Shown here piece after piece: positions 5,542 through 60,160 of a DNA stretch of 64,000 nt. The notes under the pieces were generated by a model that saw only the letters and a list, made by a program, of their open reading frames with translations, was not told where the DNA came from and ran no database searches. The DNA is taken from positions 76,112-140,111 of the forward strand of contig CAZLKB010000004.1 of assembly GCA_964560005.1 (NCBI GenBank), given 5' to 3'. This DNA is from an uncultured Gammaproteobacteria bacterium. GTDB taxonomy: Bacteria > Patescibacteriota > Patescibacteriia > Patescibacteriales > GWC2-42-12. The translations under genes were made by a program, and so were the position numbers. The stretch's first letter is position 1. Every line of letters begins with the position of its first letter.

Positions 5542-5717
5542 AGAATTAAATTTAAAGTTTAAAAATCAAAATGCAAAATGCTAGCTCCGCTAGCACCCCG
5601 CAGATGCGGGGTCATTGCAGAGCAATGACAATGCAAAATTTAAAATTATTTATATTTAGACATTTTGCATTTTTAATTGTCATTTTAAACTTTGATATTT
5701 ACATTTTGCATTAATAA
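5542..5717. repeat. Family A palindromic module with GC mini-hairpins nested at its centre
   Basis: The AT-rich arms AAAATCAAAATGCAAAATG / ATTGTCATTTTAAACTTTGATATTTACATTTTGCATT flank CCCCGC-AGAT-GCGGGG and GTCATTGC-AGA-GCAATGAC (5596-5629). Confidence 0.85.
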
Positions 5718-6059
5718 CTAATTTGATTTTAACTTTTTGCTTTTTTCACCCATATCCTCAACCTCCACCTTAACCCCGCCCGCTTTTGCCGCAAACCAAT
5801 TATATATTCCCGCCATCATATAACCTAAACCCCAGCCCAATAAAGCGGTTAAGAGCGCGGTTAATACCCCTATTAATATTCCTTCGCCGAGGTTAAATAA
5901 AACTACCAGAACAGCCGAACCCAGAAAATCCTGACGCAGGATAATGTTGACTATAGTGTAAACCGCCACTATCATGGCCATAACGAAGCCGACCAAACCG
6001 TAAAGCAAAGCCGTTATTCTGGCAAACGAATTTTTGTTAATTTTTATTATTTCTTTCAT
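5718..6059 (-). CDS. Small integral membrane protein
   Basis: 113 aa with three predicted hydrophobic helices and a lysine-rich tail. Confidence 0.55.
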   Translation of the reverse strand: MKEIIKINKNSFARITALLYGLVGFVMAMIVAVYTIVNIILRQDFLGSAVLVVLFNLGEGILIGVLTALLTALLGWGLGYMMAGIYNWFAAKAGGVKVEVEDMGEKSKKLKSN

Positions 6060-8903: not shown

Positions 8904-11900
8904 TTACTTTACTACAATATTCACCAACCTCCCCTTCACAAAAATCACTTTCTTTACTTCTTTGCCTTCAAGCCACTTCTTTATTTTTTCACTTTCTAAA
9001 GCAATTTTTTTAGCGTCTTCTTCGCTAATATTAACACTAACCTTCGCAGTATCTCTGACTTTTCCGTTAACCTGAATAACCAGATTAATCATTTCGTCGT
9101 GTGCTAATTTCGGATCATACTTAGGCCAGGTTTCTTTAAAAATACTTTGTTGATTGCCCAGTTTAACCCACAGTTCTTCCGCCAGATGGGGCGCGAACGG
9201 CGAGAGAACTATTAAAAATTTCTCCGCAGCCGCGCGCGGCATGGAATCTAACTTACCCGCGAAATTCATAAAAATCATCATTTGGGAGATGGCAGTATTA
9301 AATTTCATAGCTTCAATATCCTCGGTAACCTTTTTTATAGTTTTATGAAGTAATTTTGGCATGCCCTCGGGAACATTCTGACTAGGCTTTTTTCCGCTAC
9401 CGCCCGCCTGCCGGCCTACCTGTCCGATAGGCAGGCTAGACAAGCAATCAACAAATTTAACATTTATATAAAATTCAAAAATCTTTTCCAAAAATCTTTT
9501 CGCGCCCGCCAGTCCATCCGTACTCCAAGCGATAGCTTGATCAAACGGCCCCATGAACATTTCATAAACGCGCAAGGCGTCTGCGCCGTACTGTTTAACG
9601 ATATCATCTGGATTAATGACATTACCCTTTGATTTTGACATCTTCACTCCGCCCTCGGCTAAAATCATGCCATGCGAAGTCCGCTTGGCGTAGGGTTCGC
9701 TGGTCGGCACCAGGCCCAGGTCAAACAAAAATTTATGCCAAAAACGAGAGTATAGAAGATGTAAAGTCGTATGTTCCATGCCGCCGTTATACCAATCAAC
9801 CGGGATCCAATATTTAAGCTTTTTAAAATCAGCGAATGCTTTTTTGTTTTTTGGATCAGTGTAGCGCAAATAATACCAGCTTGAACCGGCCCAATTCGGC
9901 ATGGTATCGGTTTCTCGCTTGGCCTCGCCGCCGCAGCGCGGACACTTAACATTGACCCAGTCGGTAATGGCCGCTAGCGGCGATTCGCCCGTGTTGGTCG
10001 GTTGATATTTCTCCACCTTAGGCAATTCAACCGGCAAGTCTTTTTCCGGAATCGGCACATAACCGGTATTTTTCGCGCGCCCTACCCATTCCAACAATTC
10101 CGGAATTTGCTCGCCGAGAAAATGCCCGAAACCGTCCCACACTTCAAAATCCCATTCCTTAGGAATATGATCGTGGGTATAGAGCGGCACTGAATCGTCG
10201 TCTCTAGAAATCACTATTCTGATTTTATCGGCATATTCGGTAACTTTATTTAGGTCTATTTTCTCAAGCCAAAATTTCTGAAGAGCGTCTATATCCGAGC
10301 CTGTCCATTCCTGGCGCATTCTTTCCCAATCTCTGGGCGACAATTCTCCGATCGCCGAACCGATAAGCAATAAATGTCCAATTTTCTTTTTTGCCTTTAA
10401 TAAAAGATGCAAGGCGGCCTTACTGCCTAAACTATGCCCGATCACAATATCATCCGGGCTGAAATCTTTAATCAGAGGCAAAAGTTCTTTCATCCACTTT
10501 TTCAAATCAGGGTGGTCGGCGGTGGTCATGGTCGGTAGCCTAACCTCAAAACCGCGTTTCTCTAATTCATTTTTCAGCCAGGGTTTCCATTCACTGTCGC
10601 CCCGCCCCTCAAAGCCGTGGATTATCAAAACTTTTTGTTTAACCTTTTTACAATTTTCGCAGAATACCACCGGAATAGGCTCGCCCCAATAATGCTGACG
10701 CGAAAAAACCCAGTCGCGTAGTTTATAATTTACTTTTCTCGCCCCAATTTTTTCCTTTTCCAGCCACTCAGCCATTTTTTCACGGGCTTCAGCTGAATTG
10801 AGGCCGTTATAATCGCCAGAATTAAATAAAATACCATCGTTCGTATAAATTTTTCTTTTAATAAACTTATCAAAAAGATACTTGTGCAGTTCATCCGCAA
10901 CTTTTTGTTCCGCCTCTTTTTCGCTTAACCACTCAACCTTAAATTTATTTTGTTCGTTTTTCTCCAATTTTTGCTCAATTTTTTCCTCATCAACCAAGTC
11001 AAAAAGAAAACCCGTTGCTTCAATATTTCGCTGCACATTTTTTGAATGAGCGAAATAGTGATGATGTATTTTCTCGGATTGTTCCACTAATTTCACATTT
11101 TTATAACCCGTCTCTTCTTTGATTTCCCTTAAAGCGCACTTTAAAGCATCTTCTTTACTATTTAAACCGCCGCCAATAAATAAATTTCCGCCCAAATTTG
11201 ATCCCCAATTAATAGAAAGTAATTTTTTGGTTTTAGGATTCCTGACGATTGCGACAATACTCTCTCTGAATTCTTCTTTTTCCCGAGGTTTGCCTGTAAT
11301 CGGCTCAATCGTATAAACAATTTTCAAGCCGTACTTTTTGGCAAAATCAAAATCCCTCTCGTCGTGCGCCGGAACAGCCATGACTGCGCCAGTGCCGTAA
11401 TTGACCAAAACATAATCAGCAATCCAAACCGGAATTTCCTCGCCATTCAACGGATTGATCGCCTTAATTCCTTTTAATTCTACTCCGGTTTTCTCTTTTA
11501 CCTCTGCCGCTCTCTCTAAATCAGACTTCTCTTTCGCAGCTTCCAAATATTTTTTTACCTCTGACCAATTTGTTATTTTAGCCCTTAATTCTTGGGTTAA
11601 CTCATGCTCTGGAGATAAAACCACATAGGTGCATCCAAAAATTGTATCAAGACGAGTCGTAAAAACTTTAATTCGTAATTCGTAATTCTTAATTCTAAAT
11701 TCTATTTCCGCTCCTTCCGACCGCCCGATCCAATTCTGCTGTTGAATTTTTATTTTTTCCAGATACTCCAGCGGCCGCCGGCCCAATATTCTGGGCAGAA
11801 GATTTTCTTGGAGCGCCTGGCGGACTTTTCTATAGCGCACCTCGTCTGGTTGTTCCGATTTATATAAACCGGTTTTAGGATCTTTAATTAACGCTTCGGT

Positions 11901-31665: not shown

Positions 31666-31787
31666 GACTAATAATGTAAAATTTAAAAATCAAAATGGAA
31701 AATGACAATTAAAAATGAAAAATGTCTGAATTTATTATTTTAAATTTTACATTGTCATTTTACACTTTGAGATTTACATTTTTAATT
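31666..31787. repeat. Family A palindromic module
   Basis: ATGTAAAATTTAAAAATCAAAATGGAAAATGACAAT... is mirrored by ...ACATTGTCATTTTACACTTTGAGATTTACATTTTT. Confidence 0.85.
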
Positions 31788-32780
31788 TTAAAACGTTCTC
31801 CTCACCTTCCTGACCATCTTGTAAATATTATACCAGCCCGGGTCGTAGATTAAATCAAAAGTGCCGGGATAGTTCACCTCGTTGCCGCCAAAACCCATTT
31901 TAAATCTGGTTACTCCGGGCCACTTGGCTTCGTTAATGCCGTGAAAATCATAATATTTTTGTCCGCTGGCTTTGGCTAGCTTAATAGCGTGCCATTGCAA
32001 GAGATATGGCGCCATAACATTTCGATCTTCGTTGGCTGATCCGCCGTGAATATAGGTAGCCGTATCGCTAAAAAAGCAAACCAACGCCGTGGCGATCGGC
32101 TTACCCTTATATTCGGCAAAAAATAATTTTACCGGATTATCGGCATAAGGCTCTACCATAGCCTGATAATAACTCCGGCCATGCGGCCTGAATTTATCCC
32201 GGCCGCTGGTCTGGTCTAAAAGACTCCAAAAATCTTCAAACCTGCTTTCGCTTGATTCAACTATCTTAACCCCCTTTTTCTTCGCTAAATTTATATTATA
32301 TCTGGTTTTTTGCTGCATGGCGCCGAGAAGCTCGGCTTCCGACTTGGTTAAATCCAAAATTAAAGTCTTAGCCGGCTGGACATCCAGGGTTTGAACTAAA
32401 GTTTCATCGCCTTTAATTTTATAATCGTCGTCTTTCGGCTTATCAATCGGGTCAAAACGCAAAAACATTGCGCCAACCTCTCCGGCAAGCCTGGCAATTT
32501 CGCCAAACATTAATCTGGTAACTTCTTTTTTATCCTTGCCCTTGGCGATAACCGGCCCGCGCGCGCAATATAAATATTTCTTGCCGATCGGCAGGTCTTT
32601 GGCGTTTATCTCCGCGCTGGCCGCTAATTTACCGTCGGCCAGAACGCCGATTCGCCAAACCTGGCTGCTCACTTTCGCATGAAATTCTCCCCATTGCCAA
32701 GACTGCAAAAATTGGCTCATCTTCTGTGAGCCGACAAAATCGTTTAATTGTTTTTTGTCCTTAATTTCAATTATTTGCAT
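31788..32780 (-). CDS. FemAB-family peptidoglycan interpeptide-bridge aminoacyltransferase
   Basis: 330 aa. 'FLQSWQWGEF', 'KTRYNINLAKKKGV' and 'YYDFHGI', typical of the FemX/FemAB family. It is adjacent to the Mur ligase. Confidence 0.75.
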   Translation of the reverse strand: MQIIEIKDKKQLNDFVGSQKMSQFLQSWQWGEFHAKVSSQVWRIGVLADGKLAASAEINAKDLPIGKKYLYCARGPVIAKGKDKKEVTRLMFGEIARLAGEVGAMFLRFDPIDKPKDDDYKIKGDETLVQTLDVQPAKTLILDLTKSEAELLGAMQQKTRYNINLAKKKGVKIVESSESRFEDFWSLLDQTSGRDKFRPHGRSYYQAMVEPYADNPVKLFFAEYKGKPIATALVCFFSDTATYIHGGSANEDRNVMAPYLLQWHAIKLAKASGQKYYDFHGINEAKWPGVTRFKMGFGGNEVNYPGTFDLIYDPGWYNIYKMVRKVRRTF

Positions 32781-32880: not shown

Positions 32881-32947
32881 GAACAATTAGACATTTTACA
32901 TTTTAAACTTTCATTTTCCATTTTGATATTTTAATTTTAAACTTCCC
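32881..32947. repeat. Family A half-module
   Basis: TTAGACATTTTACATTTTAAACTTTCATTTTCCATTTTGATATTTTAATTTT. Confidence 0.7.
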
Positions 32948-41602: not shown

Positions 41603-43198
41603 CTAGTACGGCGATCGGAGCCGGTAGAAACGAACGGGATAATTCGTCCACTGGCTATCGCTGAAATAGGCCGAGCCTCCGGCCAGGGTATTGGTTTTTA
41701 CCGCCAGCCAAACCGGATTGGCCGCGTTCGTCGCGGCCTCCACCACCACGACCTGGCCGCTGGTTCCGGCGATAAAAAACCCGAACTGATTCGTTCGCAC
41801 GCCGACGCCGGCGATGCTGGGCCGCTCCGGCGCCGGCGGCCACCATAACGCGGTCGGAAAACCGGCGAAGGTTGACTTCCAACCCGTGGTTCCGGCTCGA
41901 TAATAAACGGTCGCACCGCTAACGAAAGCAAAGGTGGACGAATCTACGCTCGGGGCATTGCCTAGGAAGTAAATTCTTTTCAGTTTGGAGCAGAAAAAAA
42001 ACGCTTCGTGGCCGATGTGGGTAACGCTCTTCGGAATAATTATACTAACTAAGCTCTCGCACATATAGAATGCGCCATCACCGATAAAAGCAATAGGCGC
42101 GAGAATGACGAGATTGGTCAGTTTATCGCAATATGAAAAGGCGTCACCAAAGCTAACGACACTGGCTGGAATAGTAATACCCTGAAGGCCGCTTAGGGCA
42201 AAGGCCTTATCACCAATTCTGACGACACCCTCAGGGATGGTGAGGTTTGTTAAACTTGGACATTTATAGAATGCCAGATACCCAATATGTAAGAGGTTCG
42301 CCGGCATAACGACAGTGGCCAATTTTAAACAAGAATAGAACGCATAATCACCAATATTAGTGACGCTATGGCCGATGATGACACTCTTTAGGCTGGGGCA
42401 AGTGCTAAACATACGGTCCCCGATGCTCACAACTCCTTTGCCGATGATGACGTTGGTCAAATTAGGACAAGTGCTGAATGCCTGTGCCCCGATGCTTAAA
42501 ACGCTGTCCGGGATAGTAACACCGGTCAGGCTGGGGCAGGAGTTAAACGCGTAATTGCCGATGCTTATAACGCTCTCCGGAATCGTGTAGTTGCCTTCGG
42601 CCTTGCCCCAGGGGTAATGAATGAGCGCGGTCCGATTTTTATCAAACAACACGCCGTCCAGACTGGAGTAGAAGGCATTAGAAGCGGCCACATTTATCGC
42701 GCTTAGACTGCCACAGCCGTAAAACGCCCAGTCGCCGATCCGGTCAACGCTCTCCGGGATAGTGATGCTCTCCAGGCTGGTACAGCTGTCAAACGCCCCG
42801 TCGCCGACACGGCCGACGCCGTTGTTGATGGTGACGCTGGTCAGGCCGGTGCAGAGGTGGAAAGCGCCGTTGCCGATCCGGGTAACGCTACCCGGAATGG
42901 TGACGCTGGTCAGGCCGGAACAGGAATCGAACGTCGAGTAGCCGATGTTGGTGACGCTTAAGGGAATGGTGACGCTGGTCAGACTATAACACCCCTCAAA
43001 CGCCTGATCTCCGATACTGACGACCGGCAGGCCGCTCATCGCGTTAGGAATGGCCACGTCGCCGCCGGAACCGATGTACTTAACGATGGTGATTGCGCCG
43101 TTATCGATGGTGTAATTGAACGGGAACTGCTCATCAGCGCAAGCGCTGAAGACGAATAGAGCCAGGCTTAAATAGATCTCTTTGCTAACACTTTTCAT
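41603..43198 (-). CDS. BspA-type leucine-rich-repeat (LRR_5-like) secreted protein, compositionally GC-rich
   Basis: About 12 repeats of the form 'IPxSVTxIGxxAFxxCxxLTSVTI'. The signal peptide starts at M32, 'MKSVSKEIYLSLALFVFSACA'. The C-terminus is '...VRFYRLRSPY'. GC content is visibly higher than its neighbours; one 60-nt line I counted (41761-41820) is 36/60 G+C. Confidence 0.8.
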   Translation of the reverse strand: MKSVSKEIYLSLALFVFSACADEQFPFNYTIDNGAITIVKYIGSGGDVAIPNAMSGLPVVSIGDQAFEGCYSLTSVTIPLSVTNIGYSTFDSCSGLTSVTIPGSVTRIGNGAFHLCTGLTSVTINNGVGRVGDGAFDSCTSLESITIPESVDRIGDWAFYGCGSLSAINVAASNAFYSSLDGVLFDKNRTALIHYPWGKAEGNYTIPESVISIGNYAFNSCPSLTGVTIPDSVLSIGAQAFSTCPNLTNVIIGKGVVSIGDRMFSTCPSLKSVIIGHSVTNIGDYAFYSCLKLATVVMPANLLHIGYLAFYKCPSLTNLTIPEGVVRIGDKAFALSGLQGITIPASVVSFGDAFSYCDKLTNLVILAPIAFIGDGAFYMCESLVSIIIPKSVTHIGHEAFFFCSKLKRIYFLGNAPSVDSSTFAFVSGATVYYRAGTTGWKSTFAGFPTALWWPPAPERPSIAGVGVRTNQFGFFIAGTSGQVVVVEAATNAANPVWLAVKTNTLAGGSAYFSDSQWTNYPVRFYRLRSPY

Positions 43199-45821: not shown

Positions 45822-46793
45822 TTACTGTCCGCAATCGGCCGCCGCCGAGCCGGAGTTGTCCGAGCCGGCGCCAAAACCGGCGGATGGGGAAGCGCTGGAT
45901 AGCTGTTTAGCGCATTCAGACGGCGGCGTATTGAAAGCCGCGCAGATGCCGACTAAATAGCTGGCCGCGTCCCGGCCGGCGTTAGACTGTACCCCGTTAA
46001 TCACTAAGGTCGGACTGCCGGAAACTCCGTAACCGTTGCTAAGATCGGAATCGGTTTTATAATAACCCTTGGCTTTAGCGGCCACGCAGCTGGTCAATTT
46101 CGCCTGGTTAACCCCGGCTTGAGTAACGCATTTGGCGCTATCGCCTTCAATAATAAAGCATTTCAAATAACCGTTATACTTATCCGCCTGCTCTTCTCTG
46201 ATACAAACTTGATTATAGGTTTCCTGCTCTTCTTTGTCCCCGTGCATAAAATAATGGACGAATCTGATTTTAGCGTCAATCTTATTGCCTAGCGCTTCGT
46301 AAGCGGGGATAATCCCCTTTTCCGCTTGAAGCCCATAAGGACAATAAGTCATAACGAATAATTCAACTTTCGGCTTATCGGTTTTAGGCACCGTGGTATT
46401 TTGATTTTGCGTGTCGGCGGAGGCTTCATTATCGGCCGCGGCTTTGGCGTCAGCGGTCTCTTGGGCGAACTTCACCATATCAATGCCGCTTTGAAAAAAT
46501 TTCTCGCCGTCTTTGGTCATATACGAAGTGTATTCCTGGCCGTTAACCTCTAAATTGATGTTATAAACATCGCCCTCTAAAGTAGCGCTCTTAATCGTAG
46601 CCGTAACGCCGGTTGACAATAAATTATCGTTAATAAATTTTTCCGATACCGCCTTAGCCTCTTCCGGGCTAAGAATCTTCTTGGCATTATCATCAAGCTT
46701 AACCAGCGGAATAGAACAGCCGCTAACCAGCAGGGCTAACAGCAAGCTTAGGATAATTATTTTATTTTTCCCGTTAGATCTTGTATTCGTCAT
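45822..46793 (-). CDS. Thioredoxin/glutaredoxin-fold lipoprotein
   Basis: Lipobox 'LLVSGCS'. 'VELFVMTYCPYGLQAE' (CPYG redox motif) and 'GVSGSPTLVINGV'. Confidence 0.65.
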   Translation of the reverse strand: MTNTRSNGKNKIIILSLLLALLVSGCSIPLVKLDDNAKKILSPEEAKAVSEKFINDNLLSTGVTATIKSATLEGDVYNINLEVNGQEYTSYMTKDGEKFFQSGIDMVKFAQETADAKAAADNEASADTQNQNTTVPKTDKPKVELFVMTYCPYGLQAEKGIIPAYEALGNKIDAKIRFVHYFMHGDKEEQETYNQVCIREEQADKYNGYLKCFIIEGDSAKCVTQAGVNQAKLTSCVAAKAKGYYKTDSDLSNGYGVSGSPTLVINGVQSNAGRDAASYLVGICAAFNTPPSECAKQLSSASPSAGFGAGSDNSGSAAADCGQ

Positions 46794-51515: not shown

Positions 51516-51634
51516 AACCTTGACTATACCGTTAGATGCGAGCCCTTTCAGGGTGGTTGCATGACGGCGCAAGGTTTAACAAAACAACCAAAGACCCGGA
51601 TGCGTGCTTATAGCGGTCGCGTGGGTCGAAGGAG
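51516..51634 (+). promoter_or_regulatory. Structured 5' leader plus canonical Shine-Dalgarno site of the orphan gene
   Basis: Nested hairpin AACCTTG..CCGT..ATGC..CCCT-TTC-AGGG..GCAT..ACGG..CAAGGTT (51516-51576). A second stem GACCC(51593)...GGGTC(51627) abuts GAAGGAG (51628-51634). Confidence 0.4.
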
Positions 51635-51639
51635 ACATA

Positions 51640-52395
51640 ATGAATCATATACAGTTCACGGATCTGCCCCATAAGGTGGGCAATGATAACATCCTCTTAT
51701 TCCAGCCGGAAACAACGGTTAAAGCTGGAATATACTCTTGTCCCGGACGAGAGTGCATGGAGAGAGCGTTTACCGATACGGTAAAATTAACTGGCCTAAT
51801 CCACGTTTGCTCGGTAAGTTGTTCTAGCGCGAATGATGAGATTGGAGGGCCATACGGGCTGGATAAATGCGGTGGGAATTTAATTCTCAAACCCGTTCGT
51901 TCAGTTAAATTACTACGGCGATGCAAGCCTGAAACCGAAATTGCACTGACATGTTCAAACCCAAAGTGCAATATGGCTGTCACCTCTTCGGACTATCCCT
52001 CCAAACCAGATCTTTCAAATCTACTACTGCATCTGGCGTTCAAGCAGATGGTACCAGGCCTGCCCATTGCGAACTACTTCGATTGCAGCAAAAAAATGAA
52101 CGATCATCGTCTGCGGCTAGGTCTTGGAGATGCAATCCGAGCACTCGGATTAATCGCCTTTGCTTCAGAAACTCTCTGGGGATTCGTGGACAACGAATTT
52201 TTCGGCCGTCACTTAGTCACCCAACGTTTTGGCCTCGGATTTATGTTTGCTCCTGACATGCAAACCGCTGACGAATGCGGAGGTTACGACGCCTGGCTTA
52301 AATTCCTCGTTGAAAAAAAATTTGAGAGCCTGAAAGCCGCGCACCGGTGGTTCGCGCCTTTCTTGCTCGGACCTAAGCCGTTCCAAAGAAAATAG
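51640..52395 (+). CDS. Orphan Cys-containing hypothetical protein, compositionally atypical
   Basis: The ATG at 51640 follows GAAGGAGACATA. The ORF-track start at 51604 is a GTG upstream of the SD site. It has 252 aa with 'CPGRECM', 'CSVSC' and 'CSNPKC', and is GC-richer than its surroundings. Confidence 0.55.
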   Translation: MNHIQFTDLPHKVGNDNILLFQPETTVKAGIYSCPGRECMERAFTDTVKLTGLIHVCSVSCSSANDEIGGPYGLDKCGGNLILKPVRSVKLLRRCKPETEIALTCSNPKCNMAVTSSDYPSKPDLSNLLLHLAFKQMVPGLPIANYFDCSKKMNDHRLRLGLGDAIRALGLIAFASETLWGFVDNEFFGRHLVTQRFGLGFMFAPDMQTADECGGYDAWLKFLVEKKFESLKAAHRWFAPFLLGPKPFQRK

Positions 52396-52454: not shown

Positions 52455-53993
52455 TCACTTAAACACCTGCGCCATAAACACCTGAATCTCCGTATCCTTA
52501 TCTTTATAGCAACTGGGCGCGAGCCCGGCCTTCTGCCAGCAAAGCTGGGCTAAAAATTCTTCCAGGCTCCAGCCGGTTTCGGTCGCGACTTGAGGCAGAA
52601 ACACTCCCCGATTTCCGCCTTGCCCGAGGATAACGCCATGCTTGCCCAATTCAATCTTTCGCCAATCATCAATCGGCTCAGGCGTTGATAGGACGCTGAC
52701 TTCATATTCCAGTCCGTCCAACTCCTCGGCGCTAACCGGATTAAACCGGTCGTCTTCGCTACATGCGGCCACGGCCATTTCGCGCACCACCTGCCAAAGT
52801 GGCAAATCTGACGGCACAATCTGGCCGATACAGCCGCGCAGTTGACCATTTTTATTTAAAGTCACGAAGGCGCCTTGTTTTTTATTTAATCCTTGATCAA
52901 CCACATTAAATCCCGGTATTTTCCCGGTTTTCACATAACTTTCCACCGTCTCTTTGGCAATCTTTAATAACATCTTCTGTTGTTCATTATTTAATTCCCC
53001 GTTTACCCCGGATTTAGCTGAGATCGCATTGGCATTTTCCTTCTCATTTCTAACTTCTAACTTCTTACTTCCAAACGCGATCGCTCCATACCCCACTACC
53101 TGGCTTTTATCGCCGATCCCCGGCGCATCGCCGCTATTGGCATATTTTAAAATCTCAACTTCATCCCAGCCGGCCAAATTAGCCAGTTCCATTACGGTTT
53201 TCACCGCGTCAACGCCGCAAAGCACGGTTTGTTCGTTAGCGTAATTAGCGCTCTCAACGGTTGCCACATAATTTTCCAGTTCTGCTATGTCTCCAGTCTT
53301 TATTTTTTCCAAAGCGCCTTGATCAATCTTGTTAGCGTCCTCATACTTAGGGTAATGCGACATATCTGTAGAAATTACCACCAAATCATTCTCGCCCAGA
53401 TTGTCATAAAGCGCCTGCGCCAACTTTTTATATGTTCCATCATCTTTATTGCCGAATTCAATGGCTACAATTTTAAAGCCCGGCTCCAGAACTGTCTGCA
53501 AAAACGGCAGCTGGACTTCCAGGTTATGGTCGGTTTGGTGCGGCGCGCCGTCGAATTTTATGGACGTATCAGAATTTACCAACTGCCCTGCCAATTCCTT
53601 ATCAACCGCCACCTGGCCTAAAGGCGTTTGCCAAGCGTCGCTATCATCAACGGCCGCGCCATCAAAATAGGCCTGGTGTGAATTACTGATAATTACTGCT
53701 GTCCCAATTTTTTTGCCGGCCAGTTGCTTATAGCCGTAAGCCGCCACTGCTCCGCTATAGTCGTAACCGGCGTGCGGCACGATTATGGCTTTAATCTGTC
53801 CGAAAATTTTTTGCTCCGGCGTCTGCTTTAAAAATCTTTGAATTTTATCGGAAATAGCGCCTTTTTCAAAAGGGTAAAACTGCCCGGCCACCGCCGGCTC
53901 ACGAATTTTTTTTGGCATATCATTAGTAGCCTGATTATTTACACAGGCGGTTAAAAATAACAATGCTATAAACAATAACACTATTCTTTTCAT
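52455..53993 (-). CDS. Memo-like / AMMECR1 fusion protein with a lipoprotein signal peptide
   Basis: Lipobox 'LLFLTAC'. Memo region 'AGQFYPFEK...IIVPHAGYDYSG...STDMSHY'. AMMECR1 hallmark 'GAFVTLNKNGQLRGCIG'. The linker 'KKLEVRNEKENA' is encoded by an AT-word repeat. Confidence 0.8.
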   Translation of the reverse strand: MKRIVLLFIALLFLTACVNNQATNDMPKKIREPAVAGQFYPFEKGAISDKIQRFLKQTPEQKIFGQIKAIIVPHAGYDYSGAVAAYGYKQLAGKKIGTAVIISNSHQAYFDGAAVDDSDAWQTPLGQVAVDKELAGQLVNSDTSIKFDGAPHQTDHNLEVQLPFLQTVLEPGFKIVAIEFGNKDDGTYKKLAQALYDNLGENDLVVISTDMSHYPKYEDANKIDQGALEKIKTGDIAELENYVATVESANYANEQTVLCGVDAVKTVMELANLAGWDEVEILKYANSGDAPGIGDKSQVVGYGAIAFGSKKLEVRNEKENANAISAKSGVNGELNNEQQKMLLKIAKETVESYVKTGKIPGFNVVDQGLNKKQGAFVTLNKNGQLRGCIGQIVPSDLPLWQVVREMAVAACSEDDRFNPVSAEELDGLEYEVSVLSTPEPIDDWRKIELGKHGVILGQGGNRGVFLPQVATETGWSLEEFLAQLCWQKAGLAPSCYKDKDTEIQVFMAQVFK

Positions 53994-54117
53994 GACAATA
54001 ATGTAAAGTTTAAATCTTAAAGTGTAAAATGACAGTTTAAAATTAAAAATGTCTAATTATTATAATTTTACATTTTGCATTGTCATTTTACATTTTGAGA
54101 TTTACATTTTAAATTTT
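53994..54117. repeat. Family A palindromic module
   Basis: AATGTAAAGTTTAAATCTTAAAGTGTAAAATGACAGT is mirrored by GCATTGTCATTTTACATTTTGAGATTTACATTTTAAAT. Confidence 0.85.
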
Positions 54118-54894
54118 TTATTTCCCGTTCACCGCCTTTAATATCTGCGTGTGCACCTTGCCGTTAGAGGCCGCGATATTAGGTTCGCCTAAACGCCAAT
54201 CACGGCCCTTAAAATCCGTCACCTTGCCGCCGGCTTCCCGGACTAATAATACCCCGGCCGCCACATCCCAGTCGTTGGTGCCGGGCGCGACGAAAGATTC
54301 CACCCGGCCGGTAGCTACATAGGCGAGTTCAATCGCGGCCGAGCCCATTTGCCGGCAATCCAATTCGTTCAATTTTTGCTTGCGCCAATAGGCCAGGGCT
54401 TTTTTAATATAAACATCTTTGGTGCCATGGCAAAAAGTATTTAAAACCTTGCCTTGGCTGATACTGGAAACATGAATTTTCCTGCCGTTCAATTCCGCGC
54501 CCTGCCCGGTTTCGGCTGAGTAAGTTTCCTCCAGCATCGGCGCGTAAATCAGGCCGAAAATTAATTCGCCTTGCTTGGCTAAGGCCATAGAAATTGACCA
54601 GAGAGGGTTATGCATGGAGAAATTAGTAGTGCCGTCAATCGGGTCAATATACCAGGTATATTCGGCAGTATTTTTCTCCCTTGGCCTCTCTTCGGAAACA
54701 ATGCCATGGCCGGGAAAATATTTTTTGATCTCACTAATAATTATTTCCTGGGAAAGTAAATCAGCCTTGGTTAAAATTTCATGATGCGATTTAAGCATGA
54801 CATCAAGACGATTAAATCTGGCGTATTCTTTTTTTAGCATCCGCCCCGACAGTTCAACCGCGCTTAAAGCGATTTTTTTTATTTGATCAGACAT
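54118..54894 (-). CDS. Inositol monophosphatase family protein
   Basis: 'WYIDPIDGTTNF' and 'WDVAAG'. The likely start is M12, 'MSDQIKK'; the upstream part of the ORF is repeat sequence. Confidence 0.85.
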   Translation of the reverse strand: MSDQIKKIALSAVELSGRMLKKEYARFNRLDVMLKSHHEILTKADLLSQEIIISEIKKYFPGHGIVSEERPREKNTAEYTWYIDPIDGTTNFSMHNPLWSISMALAKQGELIFGLIYAPMLEETYSAETGQGAELNGRKIHVSSISQGKVLNTFCHGTKDVYIKKALAYWRKQKLNELDCRQMGSAAIELAYVATGRVESFVAPGTNDWDVAAGVLLVREAGGKVTDFKGRDWRLGEPNIAASNGKVHTQILKAVNGK

Positions 54895-55000
54895 AGGATT
54901 AATTTTCAATTTACAATTTTCAAACAAAGTCGCTATTTATCTCATTGATAATTTAGTCATTGAAAATTCATTGAAAATAAAAATTTGAAAATTTAAAATT
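54895..55000. repeat. Family B palindromic module
   Basis: AATTTTCAATTTACAATTTTCAAACAA... is mirrored by ...GTCATTGAAAATTCATTGAAAATAAAAATTTGAAAATTT. Confidence 0.85.
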
Positions 55001-55531
55001 TTATAATAATTCCAACATCTTTAGTTCCAGCTTCCCATTTTCGCTATCCCAAACCGCGAAGGTGGCTTTGGTAAAAACCCCGCCTAAAGTTCCCGGATTA
55101 ACGGTTGTTACGGAGTCTTTTTCCCCTATCCAGGGCTCATGAGTATGGCCGTAAAATACTATTTCACATTTTTTTAAATTTAAAACGCTTTTTATATACC
55201 AAGGTTCGTGGCATAAACCAATGGTTTTACCGTCTATTTCCGTAACGCCAAAACGACCCAAATAATTTATATTTTTATATCTCTTAACTTCTGCTTCATC
55301 ATATATTTCTAAATTACCGCGCACTAAATACATGGTTTTAAAATTTTTCGCCAGATAGGCCAGGGTCTCGCTGTTAACCACATCGCCGCAGCAAATCGCC
55401 CGATTAATAGACTGGTTCTTGCCCCAATTTATGCATTTTTCCAGATTTACTAAATTGTCATGGATGTCGGAGATAATTAAATATTTTCCGCCAGAGGCGG
55501 ATCCGCCTTGGGCGGACATATTATTCATCAT
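55001..55531 (-). CDS. YfcE/MJ0936-type metallophosphoesterase
   Basis: 'LIISDIHDN', 'CCGDV' and 'GHTHEP'. The start is uncertain (M1 at 55585, M19 at 55531, M23 at 55519). 'SAQGGSASGG' is encoded by a GC hairpin. Confidence 0.75.
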   Translation of the reverse strand: MMNNMSAQGGSASGGKYLIISDIHDNLVNLEKCINWGKNQSINRAICCGDVVNSETLAYLAKNFKTMYLVRGNLEIYDEAEVKRYKNINYLGRFGVTEIDGKTIGLCHEPWYIKSVLNLKKCEIVFYGHTHEPWIGEKDSVTTVNPGTLGGVFTKATFAVWDSENGKLELKMLELL

Positions 55532-55566
55532 AATTACTTTAATAAATTTATTCTTACAATTTACTT

Positions 55567-56703
55567 TTAATTCGCGATACTCCATATTTCATATATCATT
55601 CCCAAAATAAATAGACACGATAAAAAATAGGCCATGGGTTTGGTTAATTTATTTTTCACCGCCGAAACCTTCTCCGGCTTGGCTTTTATTATAATTACCA
55701 GCCAAATTAATATAAGGCCGGACAACCCGCCGGTAACGGCGCCGGTAAAACTGATAACCTTGGTTAAGTCGGCCAGGCCTAATAAAAATAAAAAATAAGG
55801 CACGAAGCCGGCTAAAAACCAGGCTAATTTATTATTCAATTTAAAATCCCATTCAAAAATTTCTTCAGTGGCCTGGGCGGTCAGGATGTATGAAGTGATA
55901 ATCGCCAACAAGCCGAAAACCAAAGCGAAAGTCACCACCCCGTCCTGTAAAACTTGGCTTAGACCGAATAAAGTGTCGGGCGAAGTTTTAGCGCCGGTTA
56001 TGCCCAGCACCAGCAAAACAAAAAATAGCATCAAGCCGGCGGAAATAAAAGTCCCCCAGGCAATCGCGCTCTTGATTTTATTTTTTTCATTGGCTAAAAG
56101 GCGGCAAACTTCCGGAATGGCCATCATGCCGCCAACGGAAAAAAATATCGGGCCGTAAGGCAAAAAAATATTATTCCAGTCAACTAAATGATAATTAGCC
56201 ATTGCTACATAGCCGAAGCCTCGCCAAGCGATCAAACCGATGATAAGAATCAAAATACCGGTTAAAATTAATTCTGTTCCGGAGATTAATTTTATATCAA
56301 AAAAGGTTATTGCTGTAACGAAGATAAACAGGCAGCTGGAATAAATCAAAACGCTGCCGCCGAAATAGGGACCTAATAATTGGTTTAAAAAAAGCCCGCC
56401 CACGATGATATAGGCTAAAATTGAACCATAAGCGCCAATGATTTCAACCGCGAAGGTGGCTGCTTGACTCTTTTCCCCGGCATATTTCTCCGCAAAACCG
56501 GGCAGACGGTGCTTATCTTTGGTTGACAAAACCACCTCGGCGAAAAGCAGATGTAAAAAATATTGGATAGCCGCCAACCCTATCATAAAAACGAATAACG
56601 GTATAATCCCGGCCTGGTTAATAGCGAAAGGTATGGCGAAAACGCCAACGCCGATAATCGCTCCCATTAATGTGGTTACGGCTAATAAATAATTTTTAGA
56701 CAT
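55567..56703 (-). CDS. Amino-acid permease-like transporter (Aa_trans / aromatic amino-acid permease-like)
   Basis: 378 aa with about 11 TM helices. N-terminal 'AVTTLMGAIIGVGVFAIPFAINQAGI'. Confidence 0.65.
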   Translation of the reverse strand: MSKNYLLAVTTLMGAIIGVGVFAIPFAINQAGIIPLFVFMIGLAAIQYFLHLLFAEVVLSTKDKHRLPGFAEKYAGEKSQAATFAVEIIGAYGSILAYIIVGGLFLNQLLGPYFGGSVLIYSSCLFIFVTAITFFDIKLISGTELILTGILILIIGLIAWRGFGYVAMANYHLVDWNNIFLPYGPIFFSVGGMMAIPEVCRLLANEKNKIKSAIAWGTFISAGLMLFFVLLVLGITGAKTSPDTLFGLSQVLQDGVVTFALVFGLLAIITSYILTAQATEEIFEWDFKLNNKLAWFLAGFVPYFLFLLGLADLTKVISFTGAVTGGLSGLILIWLVIIIKAKPEKVSAVKNKLTKPMAYFLSCLFILGMIYEIWSIAN

Positions 56704-59965: not shown

Positions 59966-60160
59966 AAAAAAATTGAAAGTGAAAATATCAAAATTAAAAA
60001 TGAAAATGCAAAATGTAAAATTATAATTCCCAAAATCTAACTAAACTAATTTCTAATTAATGTTATATTCTTAATGATCAAAAAAAATTAAATAACTAAA
60101 CATTTTGCATTTTAAACTGTCATTTTTCATTTTGATATTTACATTTTACATTATTCTAAG
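59966..60160. repeat. Family A palindromic module (long spacer)
   Basis: GAAAGTGAAAATATCAAAATTAAAAATGAAAATGCAAAATGTAAAAT is mirrored by CATTTTGCATTTTAAACTGTCATTTTTCATTTTGATATTTACATTTTACATT. Confidence 0.8.

What the first reader, a model, noticed from the sequence alone, without database searches (positions are those of the whole stretch)
52455..53993. Memo-like and AMMECR1 domains fused in one protein behind a lipoprotein signal peptide, with no radical-SAM partner nearby
In the described AmmeMemoRadiSam systems, the AMMECR1 protein (A), the Memo-like protein (B) and a radical SAM enzyme are separate neighbouring genes and are assumed to be cytoplasmic. Here B ('AGQFYPFEK..VPHAGYDYSG..STDMSHY') and A ('GAFVTLNKNGQLRGCIG') are fused in B-A order through a repeat-derived linker. 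The N-terminus, 'MKRIVLLFIALLFLTAC', is a textbook lipobox. No radical SAM gene lies within the window. An exported or tethered version would be hard to reconcile with dependence on an oxygen-sensitive cytoplasmic radical SAM partner. It may point to an independent function.
Basis: partly seen in the sequence, partly recalled or inferred. Interest (0 to 1): 0.55.

Follow-up and report, generated by a model that had tools for sequence, protein, structure and literature searches.

The report
Lipoprotein-anchored Memo–AMMECR1 fusion enzyme
This gene from a tiny candidate-phyla-radiation (CPR) bacterium fuses two enzyme-like domains of unknown function (Memo and AMMECR1) and tethers them to the outside of the cell membrane; that layout is normal for such fusions, and the "missing" radical SAM partner enzyme is most likely just encoded elsewhere in the genome.

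Summary
Window 52455-53993 (minus strand) encodes a 512-aa protein with a lipobox signal peptide (MKRIVLLFIALLFLTAC), a Memo domain, a disordered linker and an AMMECR1 domain. Both catalytic motif sets are intact. No radical SAM (rSAM) gene lies in the 64 kb.

The inference of an rSAM-independent function is not supported.
- Export signals are the rule for Memo-AMMECR1 fusions: about 76-86% of diverse homologues carry a lipobox, Sec signal or TM anchor.
- In 39 of about 82 metagenomic loci, a TIGR04337 rSAM sits next to such a fusion. In 21 of 35 evaluable cases it has a twin-arginine signal of its own.
- CPR bacteria do carry TIGR04337. It is adjacent to membrane-anchored fusions in some and stand-alone in others.
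- One MAG (metagenome-assembled genome) has the same lipoprotein fusion in the same gene order as the window. It carries TIGR04337 on another contig.

The gene is therefore a typical member of a large, apparently extracytoplasmic branch of the AmmeMemoRadiSam system, with an unlinked partner. The open puzzle is how an exported Memo-AMMECR1 works with an rSAM enzyme. A conserved internal Met26 raises a possible second, cytoplasmic isoform.

Interest is moderate. The gene itself is ordinary; the compartment question is not.

The parts
52455..53993 (-). Complete CDS, 512 aa: lipoprotein signal, Memo domain, linker, AMMECR1 domain
   Evidence: An identical protein (P0001) is in public data on a 152,571-bp NCBI contig.
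53943..53993 (-). Lipoprotein signal peptide (residues 1-16, MKRIVLLFIALLFLTA) plus lipobox Cys17
   Evidence: Read directly from the sequence. Conserved in frame in CPR relatives despite nucleotide changes. Other lipobox ORFs occur in the window.
53916..53918 (-). Conserved internal ATG (Met26), at the position of the start codon of signal-less relatives; a candidate alternative start
   Evidence: 80 of 81 signal-bearing close homologues keep a Met 10-19 residues before AGQFYP, whatever the spacer length. Gene callers often start here.
53079..53900 (-). Memo (LigB/PCAD-superfamily) domain, residues 32-305, with H74, H106, D210, H213 and C259 conserved
   Evidence: alignment to MEMO1; Foldseek: MEMO1 TM 0.83.
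52968..53078 (-). Inter-domain linker, residues 306-342. Disordered, variable in length among homologues, and contains a 7-nt tandem repeat at 53040-53071.
   Evidence: pLDDT <50 at 312-330; TRF.
52461..52967 (-). AMMECR1 domain, residues 343-511, with motifs R386-G-C388-I-G390 and D414-x-R416-F417
   Evidence: PH0010 E 5e-34; TM 0.78; invariant columns. Motifs as defined in PMC2034487.
53997..54118 (.). Imperfect palindromic repeat element filling the spacer upstream of the gene. Carries an 11/12 sigma-70-like match (ATGACA-16-TATAAT, minus strand, 54086-54059).
   Evidence: RNA fold z = -3.3. Absent from this spacer in relatives L004 and L005.
54118..56703 (-). Upstream co-oriented genes: IMPase-family (54118-54927), metallophosphoesterase (55001-55585) and Trp/Tyr-permease-family transporter (55567-56703). 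The order permease-phosphoesterase-IMPase-fusion is conserved in CPR relatives.

Best explanation
The gene encodes a Sec/signal-peptidase-II-type lipoprotein. After cleavage, Cys17 would be lipid-modified. That would hold a two-domain enzyme on the outer face of the cytoplasmic membrane of a Falkowbacteria-like CPR bacterium. The two domains are a Memo-type metal site (His/His/Asp/His/Cys) and an AMMECR1 cleft with its catalytic Cys, joined by a ~25-residue flexible linker.

It is a typical member of a large branch of the AmmeMemoRadiSam system in which protein B and protein A are fused and exported. Its TIGR04337 radical SAM partner is most likely still present in the genome but unlinked, as a signal-less cytoplasmic enzyme, as seen in related CPR.

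Shown: domain identity, intact motifs, a conserved export signal, the absence of the partner from the 64 kb, and the presence of the partner next to or in the same assembly as related exported fusions.

Inferred: actual lipidation and export, the presence of the partner in this particular genome, and the way the two compartments are bridged. My preferred bridge is that the activase-like rSAM acts before export. Its target would be either the unfolded pre-protein (as anaerobic sulfatase maturases do) or a membrane-linked substrate that is then finished outside by Memo-AMMECR1.
For: Domains and motifs.

Export signal conserved in frame in ten CPR loci and about 70% of annotated close homologues.

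Export is general among fusions: 114 of 150 representatives of 50%-identity clusters; 61 of 78 loci by automatic count, about 67 of 78 after inspection.

TIGR04337 (325-393 bits, cutoff 220) is adjacent in 39 of about 82 loci.

CPR carry TIGR04337. It abuts TM-anchored fusions in L092 and L096. It is stand-alone in L090, L094 and L098.

GCA_030693295.1 has the same synteny and the same lipobox fusion, plus TIGR04337 on another contig.

After TIGR04337, the rSAM's next-best family matches are protein-directed activases (PflA, NrdG and other glycyl-radical activases).
Against: No rSAM gene lies in the window or within +-10 kb in 8 close relatives, so its presence in this genome is unproven.

In the one same-synteny assembly, the rSAM gene is split just after the CxxxCxxC motif by an unidentified insertion. 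This could mean decay of the partner in this lineage.

That assembly is a MAG, so mis-binning is possible.

No signal-peptide predictor could be run.

Tat signals on rSAMs of other phyla argue that the enzymes meet outside the cytoplasm there, which does not fit a pre-export maturation model.
Confidence: 0.55

Rival explanations
1. rSAM-independent surface enzyme. In this CPR clade the exported Memo-AMMECR1 has been uncoupled from the radical SAM enzyme. It acts alone on an extracellular or scavenged substrate, perhaps together with the co-transcribed permease, phosphoesterase and IMPase genes.
For: No rSAM in 64 kb or in 8 related loci. The synteny permease-Metallophos-IMPase-fusion is conserved down to 59% identity. 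The rSAM gene in GCA_030693295.1 is interrupted. A second Memo domain fused to an extracytoplasmic-type PGA_cap domain lies in L008.
Against: Intact stand-alone TIGR04337 genes are widespread in Patescibacteria. One sits in the same ClpB-linked context as the rSAM of the same-synteny MAG. Exported fusions elsewhere are tightly linked to rSAM. The conserved synteny is seen only within one lineage and may be inherited gene order, not function.
Confidence: 0.17
2. Dual isoforms. Translation starts both at Met1 (lipoprotein) and at the conserved Met26. Met26 initiation would give a cytoplasmic Memo-AMMECR1 that can work directly with the cytoplasmic rSAM, while the long form works at the surface.
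For: 80 of 81 signal-bearing close homologues keep a Met in the spacer, whatever its length (10-19 residues before AGQFYP). Only 36 of 96 diverse fusions do. Met26 aligns with residue 1 of relatives annotated from this Met, including the genuinely signal-less fusion in L097. Independent gene callers, including NCBI's, choose it repeatedly.
Against: No Shine-Dalgarno-like sequence precedes either ATG. Conservation of a Met could simply be inherited from the ancestral start. There is no expression data.
Confidence: 0.2
3. The N-terminal hydrophobic stretch is not translated or is an artefact. The real protein starts at Met26 and is purely cytoplasmic.
For: 37 of 120 homologue annotations start at the internal Met. 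In L003 the upstream frame lacks a canonical start codon because an A-run is 1 nt shorter.
Against: The upstream frame stays open. It keeps K/R, a hydrophobic core and L-[TSA]-[AGS]-C across homologues of 55-79% identity, with many nucleotide substitutions. An untranslated region would not preserve this. Diverse non-CPR fusions independently carry Sec, lipobox or TM N-termini.
Confidence: 0.05

Closest known systems
AmmeMemoRadiSam system (NCBIfam TIGR04335 protein A, TIGR04336 protein B, TIGR04337 radical SAM enzyme)
   Same: Both halves score far above the curated cutoffs for protein B and protein A. Catalytic motifs are intact. Relatives of the fusion sit next to TIGR04337.
   Different: A and B are fused in B-A order behind a lipoprotein signal. 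The rSAM gene is not adjacent and not in the 64-kb window. The predicted location is outside the cytoplasmic membrane.
Human MEMO1 (PDB 3BCZ, 7KQ8 iron-bound, 7L5C copper-bound)
   Same: Same fold (Foldseek TM 0.83). The residues aligned to the PHAGY, SH and SxDxxH segments are conserved. Their equivalence to the MEMO1 metal ligands, and that of C259 (conserved, but outside the alignment) to MEMO1 C244, rests on my own knowledge of MEMO1.
   Different: About 20% identity. MEMO1 is a cytosolic single-domain eukaryotic protein. This one is fused to AMMECR1 and carries an export signal.
Archaeal AMMECR1 homologues PH0010, MM0484, ST0229 (PDB 1VAJ, 1ZQ7, 1WSC)
   Same: E 5e-34 to PH0010 and 41% identity in the structural alignment. 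The RGChG and DxRa motifs, proposed as the active site in PMC2034487, are present.
   Different: Those are free-standing cytoplasmic proteins proposed to modify RNA bases. An extracytoplasmic copy cannot act on cellular RNA.
Anaerobic sulfatase-maturating enzymes acting on Sec-exported sulfatases (analogy from my own knowledge, not tested here)
   Same: A cytoplasmic radical SAM enzyme paired with an exported protein. The nearest non-TIGR04337 matches of the partner are protein-directed activases.
   Different: There is no sequence relationship between the targets. No modification of Memo-AMMECR1 is known. Tat signals on many partner rSAMs in other phyla do not fit this model.

Membership tests
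AmmeMemoRadiSam system | Protein B: match to TIGR04336 above the curated cutoff | tested here: met
   248.8 bits vs cutoff 26, residues 31-307.
AmmeMemoRadiSam system | Protein A: match to TIGR04335 above the curated cutoff | tested here: met
   173 bits vs cutoff 99, residues 341-511.
AmmeMemoRadiSam system | TIGR04337 radical SAM enzyme next to or near A and B | tested here: not met
   None in the 64-kb window or in +-10 kb of 8 close relatives.
AmmeMemoRadiSam system | TIGR04337 radical SAM enzyme encoded somewhere in the same genome | not testable with these tools
   Only the 64-kb window is available; the 152-kb NCBI contig could not be fetched. A same-synteny relative, GCA_030693295.1, has it on another contig, though interrupted.
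Memo / PCAD-Memo superfamily | Conserved metal-site residues (His, His, Asp, His, Cys) | tested here: met
   H74, H106, D210 and H213 are invariant and C259 is invariant or nearly invariant in alignments A1 and A2. Alignment to MEMO1. Fold TM 0.83.
AMMECR1 | RGChG and DxRa motifs (PMC2034487) | tested here: met
   R386-G387-C388-I389-G390 and D414-x-R416-F417 are invariant or nearly invariant.
Bacterial lipoprotein (signal peptidase II substrate) | Positively charged n-region, uncharged h-region, lipobox [LVI][ASTVI][GAS]C within the first 35 residues | tested here: met
   MKR-IVLLFIALLF-LTAC17. Conserved in relatives. A pattern scan picks it out along with 2 other plausible lipoproteins in the window.
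Bacterial lipoprotein (signal peptidase II substrate) | Positive call by a trained predictor (SignalP/LipoP), and Lgt/LspA encoded in the genome | not testable with these tools
   No such predictor is available, and the genome beyond the window is not available.

The most novel reading that the evidence does not exclude
A whole branch of the AmmeMemoRadiSam system works outside the cytoplasm. In many bacteria the radical SAM enzyme is itself Tat-exported, together with a Tat-signal DUF362 protein. There it meets a Sec-exported Memo-AMMECR1 fusion and a polytopic membrane protein with a spermidine-synthase-like domain.

In CPR the system is split across the membrane: a cytoplasmic rSAM and a lipoprotein Memo-AMMECR1. 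The split would be bridged by pre-export modification, by a membrane-crossing substrate, or by a second Met26-initiated isoform.

If true, this branch of the Memo and AMMECR1 families cannot be modifying cellular RNA. It would act on an envelope-linked or lipid-linked molecule.
Probability: 0.3. Interest if true: 0.75.

Novelty: new variant of a known kind. Interest (0 to 1): 0.45.

Why it matters
MEMO1 and AMMECR1 are conserved, disease-linked human proteins whose biochemical reactions are still unknown. Their prokaryotic partnership with a radical SAM enzyme is the main clue to their function.

If the fused bacterial forms are mostly exported, and in CPR lipid-anchored at the cell surface, the range of possible substrates narrows. 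Cellular RNA is excluded for this branch, and an envelope or lipid-linked molecule becomes more likely.

It also raises a sharp enzymological question: how does a SAM-dependent and reductant-dependent iron-sulfur enzyme cooperate with, or even function in, an extracytoplasmic compartment?

For the window's gene specifically, the result is more sobering. It is a typical member of that branch. The lack of a neighbouring partner reflects scattered gene order, not a demonstrably new function.

Tried and rejected
- AF2 on the single sequence gave an unusable model (pLDDT 31.5). It was repeated with alignment A1 (pLDDT 90.4). Coordinates are not exposed and pTM is only 0.60, so whether the two active sites face each other could not be assessed.
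A profile query would have reached further.
- Looking up the window protein returned only a 2.7-kb Logan contig, not the 152-kb NCBI contig. The window could not be extended.
- The key comparative paper (Burroughs et al. 2019, J Biol Chem, PMC6664185) is not held. I could not check whether the export signals or the spermidine-synthase-like neighbour were already described there.
- Literature searches for AMMECR1 with Patescibacteria, or for Tat-exported radical SAM enzymes, found nothing relevant.
- The weak radical-SAM-like 483-aa ORF in L003 is not TIGR04337.
- The LigT/WecG-NUDIX/ClpB genes that flank stand-alone CPR rSAMs have no homologue in the window. Loss versus relocation could therefore not be judged by synteny.
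- An Rfam scan of the insertion that splits the rSAM gene in GCA_030693295.1 found no intron family.
- My first automatic N-terminus classifications mis-scored several signal peptides. The counts are given as automatic and inspected values.

Full report
THE OBSERVATION

The ORF at 52455-53993 lies on the minus strand and encodes 512 aa.
- Pfam places a Memo domain at residues 32-305 (E 6e-59) and an AMMECR1 domain at 343-511 (E 6e-53).
- NCBIfam gives TIGR04336 (AmmeMemoRadiSam protein B) 248.8 bits against a cutoff of 26, and TIGR04335 (protein A) 173 bits against a cutoff of 99.
- PDB sequence and fold searches recover MEMO1 (TM 0.83) and the archaeal AMMECR1 homologue PH0010 (E 5e-34, TM 0.78).
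- In alignments of 46 close and 60 distant homologues, the Memo metal-site residues (H74, H106, D210, H213, C259) are invariant or nearly so. So are the AMMECR1 motifs RGCIG (386-390) and DxRF (414-417). The AMMECR1 motifs are those proposed as the active site in PMC2034487.
- The AF2 model built with an alignment is confident (pLDDT 90.4), except residues 20-23 and the linker at 312-330. The DNA of the linker holds 4.6 copies of a 7-nt unit.

THE SIGNAL PEPTIDE IS REAL

The N-terminus MKR-IVLLFIALLF-LTAC17 fits the lipobox rule.
- 83 of 120 close homologues (55-79% identity; those that carry a name are Falkowbacteria, Parcubacteria or Patescibacteria) are annotated with the same K/R, hydrophobic, L-[TSA]-[AGS]-C N-terminus.
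- The rest start at an internal Met. In all three such cases where I read the DNA (P0055/L005, P0064/L007, P0099/L100), the signal is encoded in frame upstream. The short forms I could check are therefore gene-calling choices.
- One locus, L003, lacks a canonical start because an A-run is one base shorter.
- The window has two other plausible lipobox ORFs.
- No trained predictor could be run.

THE MISSING PARTNER

No ORF of 80 aa or more in the window has a CxxxCxxC motif, apart from a spurious 101-aa one. A profile built from 120 TIGR04337 homologues finds nothing at E<=10 in the six-frame translation of the window or of eight close relatives' loci. Two positive controls score 582-584 bits.

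The neighbourhood is T2SS/T4P ATPase, Translin-like, Trp/Tyr-permease-family, metallophosphoesterase, IMPase-family, then the fusion, then ProRS. The permease-phosphoesterase-IMPase-fusion order is conserved in CPR relatives down to 59% identity.

WHAT RELATIVES SHOW

Export is normal for these fusions.
- Of the 150 best representatives of 50%-identity clusters (38-53% identical to the query), 114 have a lipobox, a Sec-type signal or an N-terminal TM segment.
- Of 78 full-length fusions in metagenome and genome loci, 61 do by automatic count and about 67 after inspection.

Export does not exclude the partner.
- In 39 of about 82 loci, a radical SAM gene lies next to the fusion, usually within a few hundred bases.
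- The five sampled members score 325-393 bits on TIGR04337, cutoff 220.
- Of 35 evaluable copies, 21 carry an N-terminal extension with a twin-arginine motif (for example MISRREFLISAARMGPIAG), 4 carry a Sec/TM-type segment, and 9 have none.
- A polytopic membrane protein with a spermidine-synthase-like domain is a third conserved neighbour, in 26 loci. A Tat-signal DUF362 protein recurs in 7.

CPR bacteria have the partner.
- A search with a low-GC TIGR04337 protein returned many ~338-aa, signal-less homologues named Patescibacteria or Parcubacteria.
- Their contexts vary. The rSAM overlaps or abuts TM-anchored fusions in L092 and L096. It abuts a signal-less fusion in L097. It sits beside unfused Memo and AMMECR1 genes in L099, and beside an unfused Memo gene in L076. 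It is stand-alone in L090, L094 and L098.

The most direct evidence is assembly GCA_030693295.1.
- Contig 16 carries a lipobox fusion 59% identical to ours, in the same synteny as the window.
- Contig 43 carries the C-terminal two-thirds of a TIGR04337 gene next to ClpB, as in the stand-alone loci.
- The N-terminal third is on a third contig. I assign it to the same assembly from its neighbouring protein accession number.
- That gene is interrupted right after CxxxCxxCQNWD by an unidentified insertion. In that MAG the partner may therefore be split, decaying, or merely mis-assembled.

INTERPRETATION

The gene is a typical member of a large exported branch of the AmmeMemoRadiSam system. In its CPR lineage the three-gene cluster has been dispersed. 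I put about 0.55 on the model of a lipoprotein enzyme with an unlinked cytoplasmic rSAM partner.

How a cytoplasmic rSAM and a surface-tethered Memo-AMMECR1 cooperate is not shown. There are three options:
- The rSAM acts before export. Its next-best family matches are protein-directed activases such as PflA and NrdG. The target could be the pre-protein or a membrane-crossing substrate.
- The clade has become truly independent of the rSAM (about 0.17).
- A second, cytoplasmic isoform starts at Met26 (about 0.2). Met26 is kept in 80 of 81 signal-bearing close homologues regardless of spacer length, but in only 36 of 96 diverse fusions. It coincides with the start of signal-less relatives.

A purely cytoplasmic reading is unlikely (0.05), because the signal is conserved at the protein level.

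COMPARISON WITH WHAT IS KNOWN

- The AMMECR1, ring-opening dioxygenase-like and radical SAM neighbourhood, and fusions of the first two, were reported in 2007 with a proposed RNA-base-modification role (PMC2034487).
- Databases already name homologues 'AmmeMemoRadiSam system protein B' or 'B/A'.
- I could not read Burroughs et al. 2019, so I cannot say whether the export signals were described there. From my memory of its abstract, it links Memo to nucleotide-base and isoprenoid modification.
- In the held library, nothing links AMMECR1 to Patescibacteria or describes Tat-signal radical SAM enzymes of this family.

VERDICT

I classify the gene as a variant of a known kind. The gene itself is ordinary within its subfamily. 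The compartment problem it exposes, and the Tat-signal rSAMs found on the way, are the interesting part. Interest 0.45.

Noticed in passing
window ~1268-1397, 5568-5737, 31671-31789, 32886-32924, 53997-54118, 59990-60154: A family of intergenic, imperfectly palindromic elements built from AAAATGTAAAAT-like units: 107 matches at <=2 mismatches against 35.7+-6.1 expected. The copy at 53997-54118 has 54-nt arms that are 80% complementary. It folds better than shuffles (z -3.3) and carries an 11/12 promoter-like match. Over-extended N-termini of some homologues (MKNDNEKCKILNFKFQF...) look like translations of similar elements.
   Followed up: partly
L015, L016, L019, L020, L021, L026, L029, L031, L032, L034, L037, L040, L042, L044, L046, L047, L055, L060, L061, L069, L080 (rSAM genes next to the fusion): 21 of 35 evaluable TIGR04337 radical SAM enzymes next to exported fusions start with a twin-arginine-type signal (S/T-R-R-x-F-L-K plus a hydrophobic stretch). 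This implies Tat export of an iron-sulfur, SAM-dependent enzyme. Four more have Sec/TM-type N-termini.
   Followed up: partly
e.g. L022:11401-13662 (-), and 25 other loci; L031:7660-8697 (+): Two recurrent neighbours of the rSAM-fusion pair outside CPR. One is a ~750-aa polytopic membrane protein with a spermidine-synthase-like domain (26 loci). The other is a DUF362 protein with its own twin-arginine signal (7 loci).
   Followed up: partly
L008:5684-7528 (+) and L008:3191-5680 (+): In a CPR relative, a second Memo domain is fused to a PGA_cap (CapA-like) domain in a 614-aa protein. It lies just upstream of the permease-phosphoesterase-IMPase-fusion block, preceded by an 829-aa DUF3160 protein. 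L006 and L007 have a PGA_cap-only gene at that position.
   Followed up: no
L101:1-180 (GCA_030693295.1 JAUYAT010000043.1) and protein P0396: The TIGR04337 gene of this MAG is split between ...CANCQNWD and DISQAK.... The sequence upstream of the 3' part has stops in all frames and a 21-nt direct repeat (TTCGGTGTCATTTTAGATGAT x2). There is no Rfam match. An independent Logan assembly ends at the same place. Whether this is an intron, a mobile element or an assembly break is unresolved.
   Followed up: partly
L003:~9990-10075: In Falkowbacteria RIFCSPLOWO2_12_FULL_45_13, the signal-peptide coding region is intact but out of register with a GTG start, because an A-run is one base shorter than in relatives. 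This could be a sequencing error or a genuine frameshift that leaves only the Met26-type start.
   Followed up: no
L099:10065-11393 (-) versus window 54118-54927 (-): A myo-inositol-1-phosphate synthase gene lies near the unfused rSAM/Memo/AMMECR1 cluster of one CPR genome. An inositol-monophosphatase-family gene immediately precedes the fusion in the window's clade. This may hint at a link to inositol metabolism, or it may be coincidence.
   Followed up: no
window 51604-52395 (+): A 263-aa Cys-rich ORF with no Pfam match lies between the fusion gene and ProRS. It has no counterpart at this position in any related locus.
   Followed up: no
window 45822-46793 (-) and 41603-43198 (-): Two further ORFs have lipobox-type N-termini (…LLLALLVSGC…, …LALFVFSAC…). 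This suggests the organism uses lipoprotein anchoring more widely.
   Followed up: no
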